This document shows, in pieces, positions 3,001-6,000 of a DNA stretch of 14,166 nt. Numbering within the stretch: the stretch's first letter is position 1; every line of letters starts with the position of its first letter. The position numbers were made by a program. This DNA is from a virus: UHGV virus genome UHGV-1666497. One strand, given 5' to 3'.

Positions 3001-6000
3001 GACGACGGAAGTTGTGGGTAATCTCAGGGAAGAAACACTGAAAACTATCGGTGGTATTGATACCCGTGTTACGGGGATGAATAAGTCAACCAGTGAAGAG
3101 CTTAATAAGGTAAATGAGCGCATCACTAAGGTGGATAAAGAAGGCGGTGAAGCTTTCCTGGCCATGTGGTCAAAAAAGACCGGTGTTGAGGGAATTACTG
3201 CGGGGATCGGAATTGTTGCAGGAAAAGATGGTGAAGGGAAGCCGGTAAGCCAGGTTGCAATTTCTGCGTCACAGCTGTTTGTCTTTGACCCGAATAATCC
3301 GGATAACACCGCCTATCCGTTTGCGGTCTCTGGTGGAAAAGTTGTTATTCCCAAAGCGATGATTTATGACGCGGTGATTGAAACACTGGTGTCGCGGAAG
3401 GTTGTGGCAGATGAAGTAAAAGCCGGGGTAAGTATCACGTCGCCTGTTATCCGGAGTGCTGTTATTCAGAACGGGAACTTTCAGGTTGATTCTCAGGGTA
3501 ACCTGAATATTGGTGGCCTTTTTAGTGTTACGTCGCAGGGGCAACTGACAATTCGTTACTCTAATCAGAATGTTGGGCTGGTGATCCGCAATGATAAAAT
3601 TGAAGTTTATGACCAGAACGGACGCCTGGCTGTTCGCATAGGCAGGTTAAGCTGAGCCGGAGGCTGACATTGGCAGAATATGGTTTTGCAATATACAACA
3701 GAAACAATGTTAATGTTACGGGCGTGCTTACTCCCATATTTTTCCTGGACAGGTTTACGGCGGAGTCGGGATCAAAAACGTATACGAATAAACCAGAAGG
3801 GAAAACATTGCAGGCAGTCTGTTCATTATTTCCGTGGAATAATGTATTTAAGGACCGGAAAGTACCGAAGATAACCATTAATGGCAATACGGTGACATGG
3901 TCGAATCTTGAGCAGGGGATGGGGTCATATATTTATACATTCTGGGGGTGAGTTGTATGTATGGTTTAAGCATTACGAAACCAGATGGCAGCTTGTGGAT
4001 AAGCCCGGGGTTTACGCCTCAGTGTCTGATCAATAAGGGAACTATTCCGGCGACTGAGAAGGCTTTTTTTAAAACATCAATCCCGTCAGGAAAAAGTTGT
4101 TTTTTCTTTATCAGAACAGAGAAAAAGGCCGATGTCATGTACACACATGAACAGATTGATGGATATCATGCCTTAAGGCTTCATCAAATTGTCAGGGGAA
4201 CGAATCCTGGTGTTACGACTGTTTATGCTTTTGCGAATATGGTTACTCAACCTTCTGAGTATGGTATTGCCATGTATAACCCGTCGGGTGAGATGATTTA
4301 CCATGGCGAAATGATGCTGCTTGACGCGAAGTTAATACCAGTTGATATCAAGTTTGAGAAGGATCTTGGATATCCATGCGCAATTATGCCTGCACTGGTT
4401 GGGTATTATAACTGGCAGCGTACACCTTATGACCGACCGATTTACACCACATCCACTGGTGCTACAGGAAATAAAATATATTCCTGTGAGCATTATTCCG
4501 GTGGTGCAACATGGGATATCCGAAAGCCGTATATAGATAAAGTTCTGGTTATTAATTCCTCAATATATGATTAGCGTAAGAAAAACTTTAATAGTGTAAA
4601 ACGAAAGCGTTCCTTTCAGACATCGCATCCTTTAATTCAGAGAAATACTTAAAATGAAAAGTATCATGAAATTTTTTGCGTGTGCAGTTCTGGTGATGAG
4701 TTGCTTAACTGCACAGGTAAATGCAGCATCAGGCGATAGTACGGTATCTCTCGGGTTTGCACACATACGCTTCCCCGGGCTGAAGGATTTTGTTAGAGAC
4801 GCGGGTGTTTATAACCGGGATACGTTCAGGAATGTTGTAAACGTAAACCATTTTAATTCATCAGCTGAATACGAAAATGCTATTGCCCGGGGGCATGACG
4901 GCACAGCCAAAAGCCCCCTGGGGATGAGCATCAGGTATCGTTACGAGATAACTGATGAACTGGGTGTTATAGCCTCTTTTACATGGGCGCGCTCCATGAC
5001 TAATGCGCAGGCATTTATTGATGTTAAGCCTTCCGATCCATCACGAGAGGTAAAAAACCCGGCAGCTTCAGCGAGAACTGATATCAGGGCTAATTACTGG
5101 AGTCTACTATCCGGTCCTTCGTGGCGGTTTAACGAATACCTCAGTGTGTATGCAATGGCTGGCATGGGGGTTGCAAAAGTCACCACTGACTTGAAAATTA
5201 ACGACAATCTTAATCATGGTGCCGGTAGTTTTTCTGAAAGTAACAGCACCAAAAAAACGTCTATTGCATGGTCTGTCGGCGCGCAATTTAACTTCAATGA
5301 AAGTGTTACTATGGACGTCACTTATGAAAGCTCAGGCTCTGGCGACTGGAAAACTGATGGTTTATTTGCAGGCATTGGCCTGAAATTCTGAGTAATACCC
5401 GACAACATGTCATAACCCGCTGTGATGGCGGGTTTTTTGTTGCCCGTGCAGGGCAAAAATCGTAGATTATGCGCGGGTGCCTTTCGGCTGATGGCTGGAG
5501 GGAGAACCTGAAGGCCTGATGTGGAAAGGCCCCGAGTCAAACATTTTGTTTAACCCGAGGCCCTAACCATCATACCTTAAGCAAGTAGAAGGTTAGCGCC
5601 TCTCCACTCAGGAGGCAAGCGCTATGTCGCAAAAATCGCTCATCACCGTCACAATTTGTATGACGGTAATCTTCACCATCTGGATGTTACACGGCTCGTT
5701 GTGTGAGTTCCGGCTGAATTTGTGGGGAGCGGAGTTTGCGGCGTTCTTACAGTGTAAGCAGTAGGAAAACCGCGACGGGGACGAAAGTCCCCGTCAACTG
5801 GTTGCTGAGGTTCAGCCGATATGGCACCCGTTTCAGGTGAGAGAATGGACGACAAAATTCTCCGGTATATGCAGCGTGTTGTGAGAAATTCCCGCAACCC
5901 TGAATTTATGAATGAAGTTAAAGACGCCTGCCTTAAAAAGCAGGCGTTTTGCTTTGAAGCGCCGGATGGTTTTCTGGTGCTGCGTTCTGTGCTCAGTGAC

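What the first reader, a model, noticed from the sequence alone, without database searches (positions are those of the whole stretch)
5440..5800. Unannotated Hok/PndA-like type I toxin locus between lom and the downstream accessory genes
A 46-codon ORF (5624-5764), invisible in the ORF track, encodes MSQKSLITVTICMTVIFTIWMLHGSLCEFRLNLWGAEFAAFLQCKQ, which carries the Hok/PndA/SrnB hallmarks (TM helix, SLCE-x-R, E-x-AAF-L). Its Shine-Dalgarno is partly buried in a hairpin (5596-5622), a candidate promoter sits about 150 nt upstream, and a strong stem-loop follows the stop. No mok-like overlapping frame with a start codon was found in either alternative frame, which is atypical for plasmid hok/pnd loci. 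Plasmid hok/sok is known to stabilise replicons and has been reported to interfere with T4 infection, so a prophage-borne copy could act as an addiction or abortive-infection moron. The Sok-like antisense RNA is expected but not located.
Basis: partly seen in the sequence, partly recalled or inferred. Interest (0 to 1): 0.75.

Follow-up and report, generated by a model that had tools for sequence, protein, structure and literature searches.

The report
Second hok/sok toxin cassette in Stx phage
This is a real but already catalogued Hok-family membrane-toxin gene with its antisense-RNA antidote, sitting after lom in a Shiga-toxin phage; its one unusual trait is the lack of the usual "mok" leader reading frame.

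Summary
A 46-codon ORF (5624-5764, +) encodes a Hok/Gef-family peptide (Pfam HOK_GEF 33.2 bits, cut-off 22). It lies in a ~390-nt cassette (5440-5832) with its own conserved promoter. The predicted mRNA pairs its extreme 5' end with its extreme 3' end, as classical hok mRNAs do, and covariation across 19 loci supports the fold.

Its promoter (-35 TTGCCT, 17 nt, -10 TAACCT, minus strand) matches the SokW promoter of phage 933W exactly. The RNA would run from ~5583 to ~5520 as a 5' tail plus a long hairpin.

No mok frame exists in this copy. It has a 14-nt gap exactly where mokW starts.

The locus is not new. RefSeq annotates it as a Hok/Gef family protein (WP_000078907.1) and PHROGs as "MokW-like host killing". 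The exact peptide is entry 72_1589 in a 2025-26 preprint that cloned it for toxicity testing; it is not among the three constructs reported non-toxic. It is distinct from the characterised hokW-sokW locus, which 933W-type phages also carry.

The remaining open question is how a mok-less hok is translated and controlled.

The parts
5414..5434 (+). Intrinsic terminator of the upstream lom gene. It forms the left boundary, and the cassette's -35 starts right after its T-run.
   Evidence: Terminator scan, 9-bp stem plus T-run. The Ail/Lom CDS ends at 5391.
5440..5468 (+). hok promoter: -35 TTGCCC (5440-5445), 17-nt spacer, -10 TAGATT (5463-5468)
   Evidence: Homology between copies in unrelated contexts begins here. 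TTGCC and TA-A/C-A/G-TT are conserved in 14 of 14. It aligns with TAGAAT upstream of the hokW mRNA start. It falls below the generic scan threshold.
5475..5832 (+). Predicted full-length hok mRNA. The 5' end is inferred; the 3' end is approximate, with no terminator directly after it in this phage context.
   Evidence: The Rfam hok/sok leader model starts at 5475. MFE -158.5 kcal/mol, z -7.1. Homology in diverged copies spans ~5463-5829.
5475..5491 (+). tac-like 5' element (GGGUGCC UU UCGGCUGA). It pairs with the 3' fbi-like element in the full-length RNA and with 5521-5533 after 3' trimming.
   Evidence: Folds. Helix 1 is 96.5% paired across 19 loci.
5812..5829 (+). fbi-like 3' element (UCAGCCG AUAU GGCACCC) that pairs with the 5' end
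   Evidence: It overlaps the mis-called start (5821) of the next ORF.
5519..5566 (+). Short upstream ORF (MWKGPESNILFNPRP*) lying almost wholly inside the Sok-complementary region. Possible mok remnant or surrogate, function unknown.
   Evidence: In some P2-type copies the same ATG reads on into hok. The stop position varies, one copy has ATG-TGA, and C. braakii has AAG.
5520..5583 (-). Predicted Sok-like antisense RNA (~60 nt): a single-stranded 5' tail (5583-~5565), an 18-bp hairpin (5564-5526), then UUUCC
   Evidence: Projected from the annotated SokW of 933W. Fold -30.5 kcal/mol, z -5.5. The hairpin is more stable on the minus strand than on the plus strand in 17 of 17 distinct homologues. 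No transcript data.
5590..5618 (-). Sok-like promoter: -35 TTGCCT (5618..5613), 17-nt spacer, -10 TAACCT (5595..5590)
   Evidence: Both hexamers and the spacing are identical to the sequence just upstream of the annotated SokW 5' end. The -10 is invariant in 19 of 19 loci. Mutating the sokW -10 region unleashes HokW toxicity.
5557..5602 (+). Predicted antisense-target hairpin of the 3'-trimmed mRNA, with loop ACCUUAAGCAA
   Evidence: Fold of 5475-5799
5595..5623 (+). Hairpin that buries the hok Shine-Dalgarno AGGAGG (5610-5615)
   Evidence: The outer stem (helix 8) is 98.9% paired. The inner stem varies and is 66.7% paired.
5624..5764 (+). hok-family toxin CDS, 46 aa (Hok cluster 72; WP_000078907.1)
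   Evidence: Median dN/dS 0.30. Exact peptide is 72_1589 / construct LRP157, reported toxic by exclusion.
5727..5744 (+). dcb-like box inside the codons for GAEFAAF. It pairs with the hok AUG and first codons (5624-5641).
   Evidence: Helix 10 has 16 pairs and is 96.2% paired. Synonymous sites in codons 36-46 are frozen in most pairs. The helix persists in the trimmed fold.
5774..5795 (+). 3' stem-loop, probably the protective 3' end of the processed mRNA
   Evidence: Helix 18 is 99.4% paired, with 4 pairs showing compensatory change. The role is inferred from R1.
5798..5811 (+). 3' tail segment that pairs with the Sok-target region (5574-5588) in the full-length RNA, hiding the target until 3' processing
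   Evidence: Helix 6 is 84.5% paired, with 4 pairs showing compensatory change

Best explanation
The region 5440-5832 is a self-contained hok/sok-type type I toxin-antitoxin cassette. It is a paralogue of the hokW-sokW locus that 933W-type Stx phages also carry, and it is distinct from that locus.

Shown or directly supported:
- It encodes a 46-aa Hok/Gef peptide under purifying selection. A recent survey reports that peptide toxic when induced in E. coli.
- It has its own promoter downstream of the lom terminator.
- Its mRNA is predicted, with covariation support, to fold back so that the 5' end pairs with the 3' end. The Sok-target region is hidden by the 3' tail, the SD sits in a hairpin, and the AUG pairs with a box inside the C-terminal codons.
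- A convergent antisense promoter identical to the SokW promoter would make a ~60-nt Sok-like RNA complementary to 5520-5583.

Inferred by analogy with R1 hok/sok and hokW-sokW:
- The stable full-length mRNA is translationally inert.
- Slow 3' trimming removes the fbi element, the 5' end re-pairs with 5521-5533, and a target hairpin forms.
- While the unstable Sok-like RNA is being made, it binds that hairpin and the duplex is destroyed, probably by RNase III.
- When Sok synthesis stops, Hok is made and depolarises the inner membrane.

Difference from the canonical system: this copy has no mok frame, so hok would have to be translated directly from its own strong SD. The antisense RNA pairs at least 27 nt upstream of that SD, so it would act by decay or refolding rather than by blocking a leader ORF.

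The biological role in the phage is untested. Prophage retention, or help with lysis at induction as shown for hokW-sokW, are the likeliest. The cassette points the same way as the lom and tail genes, so read-through from them at induction could occlude the antisense promoter. That last point is my own inference.
For: Peptide family: Pfam HOK_GEF 33.2 bits against cut-off 22. PHROG 251 at E 2.8e-24. 30% identity to R1 Hok and 37% to HokW, with the SLCE-R and E-AAF motifs aligned.

Public annotation: Hok/Gef family protein.

Toxicity: the exact peptide is construct LRP157 / 72_1589. The text names only 19_179, 60_1482 and 69_1540 as non-toxic among 45 tested.

Selection: the 46-codon frame is intact in 13 of 14 copies across five contexts. 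Median dN/dS is 0.30, and window versus PA4 gives dN 0 with dS 0.30.

RNA:
- Rfam hok/sok leader model hits 5475-5635 (+) at 42.1 bits, E 3.7e-8. The same model hits genuine hokW on the sense strand at 113.5 bits.
- Fold z -7.1 with 5'/3' closure.
- 86.5% of cells paired against at most 46.7% in slid controls, and 26 pairs with double-sided change against 8-14.
- The trimmed RNA switches its 5' partner and forms a target hairpin.

Antisense RNA: the SokW promoter hexamers and spacing are identical. The -10 is invariant in 19 of 19, and the hairpin is stronger on the minus strand in 17 of 17.

Functional precedent: sokW promoter mutation releases HokW toxicity, and hokW-sokW speeds lysis and doubles phage release.
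Against: There are no transcript, TSS or protein data for this locus, so both RNA ends are inferred.

The Rfam hit is below the gathering score (42 against 59), and NCBIfam HokA and Hok models are far below their cut-offs.

Both promoters are weak by consensus and the generic scan does not report them.

In R1, mok translation up to the hok SD is mandatory for Hok synthesis. Here mok is absent, and the AUG-sequestering helix persists in the predicted trimmed RNA. Whether the native locus ever makes Hok is therefore unproven.

The Sok-like terminator has only a UUU tail.

One related phage copy (L006) carries a frameshifting 8-nt deletion, so loss is tolerated.

Toxicity was shown with a heterologous promoter and SD. 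I inferred it from the text plus the table and did not see the figure.
Confidence: 0.85

Rival explanations
1. Silenced relic. The peptide is still toxic if forced, but the native cassette can no longer express it because the mok frame needed for translational coupling has been lost. The locus then persists as a passenger, or only for its RNAs.
For: There is no mok frame, with a 14-nt gap at the mokW start. R1 requires mok translation up to the hok SD. The hok AUG stays paired in the predicted processed RNA. One phage copy is frameshifted.
Against: Purifying selection acts on the peptide: dN/dS 0.30, and dN 0 with dS 0.30 against PA4. The frame is intact in 13 of 14 copies spread over five unrelated mobile contexts and four genera. 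Compensatory changes maintain the regulatory helices. Both promoters are conserved, and the antisense -10 is invariant. A dead toxin would not need an antidote. The hok SD is strong (AGGAGG, 8-nt spacing).
Confidence: 0.12
2. A cryptic leader ORF replaces mok. The short ORF starting at ATG 5519 (15 codons here) would be the functional equivalent. Sok-like RNA would block its translation, and ribosomes on it would remodel the leader to open the hok SD.
For: ATG 5519, with AAGG 4 nt upstream, is kept in nearly all copies. The ORF lies almost entirely within the Sok-complementary region. In several P2-type copies the same ATG reads through and overlaps hok like a true mok of 70-100 codons.
Against: The stop position and the peptide are not conserved. 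One copy has ATG immediately followed by TGA, and C. braakii has AAG instead of ATG. In this window the ORF ends 44 nt before the hok SD, whereas R1 needs translation up to the SD. The conservation of this stretch is equally explained by the RNA helices it takes part in.
Confidence: 0.15
3. The same molecular module, but its selected role is anti-phage abortive infection or superinfection exclusion for the lysogen.
For: Plasmid R1 hok/sok on a high-copy vector reduced T4 plating by 42%, as cited. The cassette sits among morons (lom, an outer-membrane protein, a bacteriocin-like gene) and at the end of P2-type prophages, where defence genes often sit.
Against: PADLOC gives no hit. [quoted passage not shown] The only direct test of a Stx-phage hok locus found help with lysis and release, not defence.
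Confidence: 0.15

Closest known systems
hokW-mokW-sokW of Stx2 phages 933W / Sp5 (Takada et al. 2021, PMC8621323; annotated in AF125520)
   Same: Same phage type, and 933W-type genomes carry both loci. The Sok promoter is identical (TTGCCT-17-TAACCT) and the leader layout is alignable, with GGGUGC at the mRNA 5' end. Both hit the same Rfam model on the sense strand. The peptides are 37% identical.
   Different: It is a different locus: after lom and co-oriented with the tail genes, against ~12 kb away near the right end on the other strand. The peptide has 46 aa, not 51, and belongs to another 60%-identity cluster (72 against 35). There is no mok, with a 14-nt gap at the mokW ATG. Rfam score is 42 bits against 113. 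It has no experimental study as a TA system.
hok/mok/sok of plasmid R1 (paradigm; summarised in PMC9841398)
   Same: Small TM peptide with the LCE-R core. The full-length mRNA is closed by 5'/3' (tac/fbi-like) pairing. On predicted 3' trimming the 5' end switches partner and a target hairpin appears. A protective 3' stem-loop is present. The short antisense RNA has a 5' tail plus a hairpin.
   Different: There is no mok leader ORF, whereas in R1 mok translation up to the hok SD is mandatory. Here the internal box pairs with the hok AUG itself rather than with the mok SD. In this phage context no separate terminator hairpin follows the fbi-like element. The replicon is a prophage, not a plasmid.
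Hok cluster 72 of Escalera-Maurer et al. (bioRxiv 10.1101/2025.08.07.668861)
   Same: This is the same entity. The exact peptide is entry 72_1589 (construct LRP157), in a 'high-abundance cluster'. The P2-type variant is 72_1621. Toxicity on arabinose induction is reported for all tested but three others.
   Different: That study deliberately analysed only the coding sequences and did not map mok, Sok or the mRNA structure.
Chromosomal hokA-E of E. coli K-12 (NCBIfam HokA equivalog NF007290)
   Same: Best NCBIfam resemblance is to HokA (38.4 bits). Same Pfam family.
   Different: The score is far below the equivalog cut-off of 89, so it is not a HokA orthologue. The copies examined here lie on mobile elements or islands (prophages, a urease island, a plasmid) rather than at a fixed chromosomal site.

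Membership tests
Hok/Gef protein family (Pfam PF01848) | Peptide scores above the curated gathering threshold of the HOK_GEF profile | tested here: met
   33.2 bits against cut-off 22, E 4e-8, residues 8-44 on profile positions 6-42 of 42. PHROG 251 at E 2.8e-24.
Hok/Gef protein family (Pfam PF01848) | About 50-aa peptide with one N-terminal hydrophobic helix followed by the conserved L-C-E core and a polar C-terminal tail | tested here: met
   ITVTICMTVIFTIWML is followed by GSLCEFR. C27 is invariant, and L26 and E28 are at least 90% conserved, in 30 family members. The core aligns with SLCEIR of R1 Hok.
Hok/Gef protein family (Pfam PF01848) | Kills or arrests E. coli when induced | not testable with these tools
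   Literature only. The exact peptide was cloned as LRP157 / 72_1589 and is not among the three non-toxic constructs named. Figure S4 was not seen.
HokA equivalog / Hok subfamily (NCBIfam NF007290, NF007279) | Score above the curated cut-off | tested here: not met
   38.4 against 89 bits, and 22.7 against 73 bits. It is not an orthologue of a named K-12 Hok.
hok/sok type I TA locus (R1 paradigm) | Cis-encoded short antisense RNA (Sok) with its own promoter, overlapping the toxin mRNA leader | tested here: met
   Sequence level only. The -35, spacer and -10 are identical to the SokW promoter. The -10 is invariant in 19 of 19, and the hairpin is strand-specific in 17 of 17. The fold is a 5' tail plus an 18-bp hairpin, z -5.5. 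Expression was not tested.
hok/sok type I TA locus (R1 paradigm) | Long-range 5'-3' (tac/fbi) pairing that closes the full-length mRNA | tested here: met
   5475-5481/5823-5829 and 5484-5491/5812-5819 in the MFE, z -7.1. Helix 1 is 96.5% paired. Helix 2 is 74.6% paired, with three pairs each changed on both sides in one sequence.
hok/sok type I TA locus (R1 paradigm) | 3' trimming triggers refolding (tac re-pairs upstream, an antisense target hairpin forms, and the RNA becomes translatable) | tested here: inconclusive
   The predicted trimmed RNA does switch its 5' partner to 5521-5533 and forms the hairpin 5557-5602. The helix holding the hok AUG remains. This is an MFE prediction only.
hok/sok type I TA locus (R1 paradigm) | [quoted passage not shown] | tested here: not met
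   There is no start codon, canonical or near-cognate, in either alternative frame upstream of the hok ATG. A 14-nt gap lies at the mokW ATG. Relatives have such a frame only sporadically.
hok/sok type I TA locus (R1 paradigm) | Match to the Rfam RF01794 (sok / hok leader) covariance model at its gathering score | tested here: not met
   42.1 bits against 59, E 3.7e-8, over the full model length. Related copies score 48-50 bits, and genuine hokW scores 113.5.
hok/sok type I TA locus (R1 paradigm) | Antitoxin neutralises toxin in vivo, with RNase III cleavage of the duplex | not testable with these tools
   Shown for hokW-sokW and R1, but not for this locus.

The most novel reading that the evidence does not exclude
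The cluster-72 cassettes may be a widespread, functional, mok-independent branch of hok/sok. In that reading:
- Hok is translated directly from its own strong SD.
- The start codon, rather than a leader-ORF SD, is what the internal complementary box sequesters.
- The Sok-like RNA, binding at least 27 nt upstream of the SD, controls expression purely through duplex-triggered decay or refolding.

A Stx phage would then carry two mechanistically different hok modules. The survey found two Hok homologues in only 3.5% of hok-encoding phages. The lom-adjacent module, co-oriented with the lom and tail genes, could be switched on by read-through that occludes its antisense promoter.
Probability: 0.35. 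Interest if true: 0.45.

Novelty: already known. Interest (0 to 1): 0.2.

Why it matters
As a discovery it matters little. The gene is annotated in many of the 5,426 complete E. coli genomes searched (1,750 hold the cassette) and in many phage records. Its peptide has already been cloned and reported toxic.

It has modest value in three ways:
- It shows that 933W-type Stx phages carry two different hok/sok modules. Deletion studies of hokW-sokW alone (a two-fold effect on phage release) may therefore be buffered by the second locus.
- It gives coordinates for the untested Sok-like RNA and both promoters, which annotation pipelines miss because the Rfam model scores below threshold.
- The conserved absence of mok, in a cassette that otherwise keeps the hok mRNA architecture, offers a natural test of whether mok coupling is essential to the family or particular to R1-like members.

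Tried and rejected
1. I first assumed the locus was hokW-sokW. I rejected this because the HokW sequence rebuilt from the paper's primers differs, the window lacks the hokW start, and hokW maps ~12 kb away on the other strand in phages that carry both.

2. Rfam at gathering threshold over the whole window found nothing. Only the permissive scan showed the leader match.

3. The generic promoter scan found neither promoter, so I relied on conservation and on homology to SokW.

4. I searched for mok with near-cognate starts and found none in this copy. The upstream ATG 5519 ORF was considered as a surrogate and kept only as a low-confidence rival.

5. PADLOC was searched for a defence-system label and gave no hit.

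6. Literature searches for a paper on the lom-adjacent locus (hok + sok + 933W; hok + lom + Stx + prophage + type I toxin) found none. The 2026 Pas-sRNA preprint only cites the hokW paper.

7. The genome-contig scan returned only 7 loci. Three carry non-enterobacterial names (Xanthomonas pisi, a Planococcaceae MAG, Vagococcus) and are probably contamination. Two of these (L017, L019) were used as sequence variants, with no taxonomic inference; L016 is truncated and was left out.

8. I did not use structure prediction, fold search or the remaining large protein searches. A 46-aa TM peptide with a clear family assignment would gain nothing from them.
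Full report
**1. Observation**

- AGGAGG (5610-5615) sits 8 nt before the ATG. The predicted fold places it inside a hairpin spanning 5595-5623.
- A 9-bp stem-loop (5774-5795) follows the stop codon.
- A promoter-like pair, TTGCCC (5440-5445), 17 nt, TAGATT (5463-5468), lies ~150 nt upstream, directly after the lom terminator (5414-5434).
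- Neither alternative frame across the hok start has a start codon, even allowing CTG/ATT/ATC/ATA.

**2.

- Pfam HOK_GEF matches above its gathering score: 33.2 bits against 22, E 4e-8.
- PHROG 251 ('MokW-like host killing') matches end to end at E 2.8e-24.
- NCBIfam HokA and Hok models match only weakly, far below their cut-offs. The peptide is therefore a divergent family member and not an orthologue of a named K-12 Hok.
- Rfam finds nothing at gathering thresholds.
- In a permissive scan, RF01794 ('sok') aligns over its full length to 5475-5635 on the + strand, at 42.1 bits and E 3.7e-8 against a gathering score of 59.
- As a control, the same model hits the genuine hokW locus of 933W on the sense strand at 113.5 bits. 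That hit runs from the hokW mRNA 5' end to the hokW start codon, with the annotated SokW inside it on the opposite strand.
- The Rfam hit therefore marks the hok mRNA leader. Other copies of this cassette score 48-50 bits, which explains why pipelines never call a Sok here.

**3. Provenance and prior knowledge**

The window is a 933W-like (Sepvirinae) Stx2a phage. It is 100% identical over the locus to phage Lyz12581Vzw and to prophages of O103, O145, O26, O111 and O157 strains.

Public annotations of this CDS:
- RefSeq calls it 'Hok/Gef family protein' (WP_000078907.1).
- Phage records call it 'MokW-like host killing', 'small toxic polypeptide' or 'host toxic membrane protein'.

The characterised Stx-phage system, hokW-sokW of Sp5 (PMC8621323), is a different locus:
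- HokW has 51 aa (MKQQKAM...ESEK).
- Its start is absent from the window.
- In phages that carry both, it lies ~12 kb away on the other strand.

A 2025-26 preprint (10.1101/2025.08.07.668861) catalogued 1,264 Hok peptides in 61 clusters:
- Our exact peptide is entry 72_1589, construct LRP157, in a 'high-abundance cluster'.
- The text states that 42 of 45 tested homologues were toxic and names only three others as non-toxic.
- That study explicitly did not analyse mok, Sok or mRNA structure.

**4. The cassette and its spread**

Homology between diverged copies covers window ~5463-5829. In the multiple alignment it begins at the -35 and ends at GGCACCC.

The same ~390-nt module occurs in these contexts, nearly always with a 141-nt ORF:
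- after lom in 933W-like phages;
- after ogr at the end of P2/P88-type prophages;
- between gpJ and a tail-fibre gene in a lambda-like prophage;
- in a urease island;
- on a plasmid;
- in Salmonella, E. albertii and Citrobacter, the last two with 47 codons.

It is found in 1,750 of 5,426 complete E. coli genomes, with up to 9 places per genome.

Evidence on selection:
- The frame is intact in 13 of 14 copies examined. One phage copy (Stx2_EH2011) has a frameshifting 8-nt deletion.
- Median pairwise dN/dS is 0.30.
- Window versus PA4 gives dN 0 with dS 0.30.
- Codons 36-46 are frozen even at synonymous sites in most pairs.

**5. RNA anatomy**

*Full-length mRNA (5475-5832).* It folds with MFE -158.5 kcal/mol, z -7.1. 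The main helices are:
- 5' GGGUGCC / CGGCUGA (5475-5491) pairs with 3' UCAGCCG / GGCACCC (5812-5829).
- The Sok-target region (5574-5588) pairs with the 3' tail (5798-5811).
- The SD sits in a hairpin.
- The hok AUG and first codons (5624-5641) pair with 5727-5744, inside the codons for GAEFAAF.

*Covariation.* The structure was projected onto an alignment of 19 loci:

| Measure | Structure | Controls (partners slid 1-3 columns) |
|---|---|---|
| Cells forming a standard pair | 86.5% | 36.8-46.7% |
| Pairs with change on both sides | 26 | 8-14 |
| Cells with change on both sides | 67 | 11-22 |

The best-supported helices are:
- the 3' hairpin (99.4% paired, 4 compensatory pairs);
- the target/3'-tail helix (4 compensatory pairs);
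- the AUG helix (96.2% paired);
- the outer 5'/3' closure (96.5% paired).

One caveat applies. The structure was derived from one of the aligned sequences, which inflates the paired-cell measure. The counts of double-sided change are less affected.

*3'-trimmed mRNA (5475-5799).* After removal of the last ~33 nt, the predicted fold changes as in R1:
- The 5' end now pairs with 5521-5533.
- 5557-5602 becomes a discrete hairpin with ACCUUAAGCAA in its loop.
- The AUG helix persists in this prediction.

**6. The antisense RNA**

I aligned the cassette with the annotated 933W hokW/mokW/sokW locus.
- The sequence upstream of the annotated SokW 5' end is TTGCCT, 17 nt, TAACCT, then 6 nt.
- The window has the same hexamers and spacing on the minus strand: -35 at 5618..5613 and -10 at 5595..5590.
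- This predicts a start at 5583/5582.
- The RNA from 5583 to ~5520 folds as a single-stranded 5' tail, an 18-bp hairpin and UUUCC (-30.5 kcal/mol, z -5.5), which is the Sok architecture.
- The -10 is invariant in 19 of 19 loci.
- The hairpin is more stable on the minus strand (-21.6 to -31.3 kcal/mol) than on the plus strand (-14.6 to -20.8) in all 17 distinct sequences. This is expected if the G.U-containing helix is selected in the antisense RNA.
- Takada et al. showed that mutating the sokW promoter unleashes HokW toxicity and that sokW supplied in trans partly rescues it.

**7. The missing mok**

- The same alignment shows a 14-nt gap in our locus exactly where the mokW ATG lies.
- The only upstream ORF is ATG 5519 to TAA 5564-5566 (15 codons). 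It ends 44 nt before the hok SD.
- In some P2-type copies indels let that ATG read on across hok (70-100 codons). This is sporadic even among close relatives.
- One copy has ATG-TGA, and C. braakii lacks the ATG.
- In R1, mok translation up to the hok SD is mandatory.
- So this subfamily either translates hok directly from its strong SD or is translationally crippled.
- Purifying selection on the peptide, maintained regulatory helices and a conserved antidote promoter all favour the first option. No experiment settles it.

**8. Mechanism and role**

Shown:
- family membership of the peptide;
- the promoters by conservation;
- the fold-back architecture with covariation;
- the antisense promoter identity.

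Inferred from R1 and hokW:
- an inert full-length mRNA;
- activation by 3' trimming;
- Sok binding and RNase III decay;
- membrane depolarisation when Sok synthesis lapses.

The role is untested. For hokW-sokW, induction removes sokW RNA, HokW appears about 1 h before endolysin, and deleting the locus halves phage release. A similar or redundant role is plausible here.

The cassette is co-oriented with the lom and tail genes. I suggest, as inference only, that read-through at induction could occlude the antisense promoter.

A defence role has no support: PADLOC gives no hit.

**9. Verdict**

The finding is real and correctly interpreted, but it is already annotated and catalogued.
- separation of this locus from hokW-sokW;
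- coordinates for the Sok-like RNA and both promoters;
- a covariation-supported mRNA model;
- confirmation that mok is absent.

Interest is low. There is a moderate residual question about mok-independent control.

Noticed in passing
window 5821-6222: The mechanical ORF starts at ATG 5821, inside the fbi-like element (GGCACCC). The real start is probably ATG 5845, preceded by GGTGAGAG. Other phage records annotate a 378-nt CDS, and the 125-aa form matches phrog_610 (unknown function) over the whole profile, positions 1-124 of 124.
   Followed up: partly
window 5519-5566; L009, L011, L012, L015: A 15-codon upstream ORF lies within the Sok-complementary region. In some P2-type copies the same ATG reads through into hok as a 70-100-codon mok-like frame. 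The state differs even between close relatives.
   Followed up: partly
L006 (Stx2a phage Stx2_EH2011), about 1711-1850: An 8-nt deletion early in the hok ORF truncates it to 24 aa, while the flanking RNA elements are intact. This is a natural knock-out of the toxin in an otherwise complete Stx2a phage.
   Followed up: no
L005 (phage phi315) against the window: This copy is a mosaic. The leader and 3' elements closely resemble the window's, but the coding part is strongly diverged (dS above 1, peptide MPQKTIIVSILC...). It resembles the urease-island copy L014, which suggests recombination within the cassette.
   Followed up: no
window 5924-5963: A cluster of terminator-like hairpins on both strands (GCCTGC...GCAGGC plus T-runs) lies inside the coding region of the gene downstream of hok. 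It could end hok transcripts that lack a terminator after the fbi-like element in this phage context. P2-type copies have a clear terminator ~20 nt after GGCACCC.
   Followed up: no
Rfam RF01794 on L023:1203-1377 (+): The Rfam family named 'sok antitoxin (CssrC)' matches the sense strand of the hok mRNA leader, ending at the hok AUG, and not the strand on which SokW is annotated (1253-1323, minus). Hits to this model should be read as the hok leader plus the Sok complement.
   Followed up: yes
L016, L017, L019 (genome contigs): Contigs labelled Xanthomonas pisi, a Planococcaceae MAG and Vagococcus sp. carry this enterobacterial cassette at 76-100% peptide identity. L017 also has a masked run of N. 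These are most likely assembly contamination.
   Followed up: no
L022:1809-1995 (-); L014:4551-4702 and 5178-5331 (+): Other known sRNA families lie next to cassette copies. STnc540 sits directly downstream of the S. diarizonae copy at 185.7 bits. STAXI (134.3 bits) and a sub-threshold EFASI match (48.9 bits, cut-off 51.2) lie near the urease-island copy.
   Followed up: no
window 9040-14139: A 1,699-aa ORF, cut by neither window end as listed, corresponds to the 'LPD38/LPD5 domain-containing protein' of related records. A small gene annotated 'bacteriocin' (252 nt) lies just before the CDS that precedes it in those records. Neither was examined.
   Followed up: no
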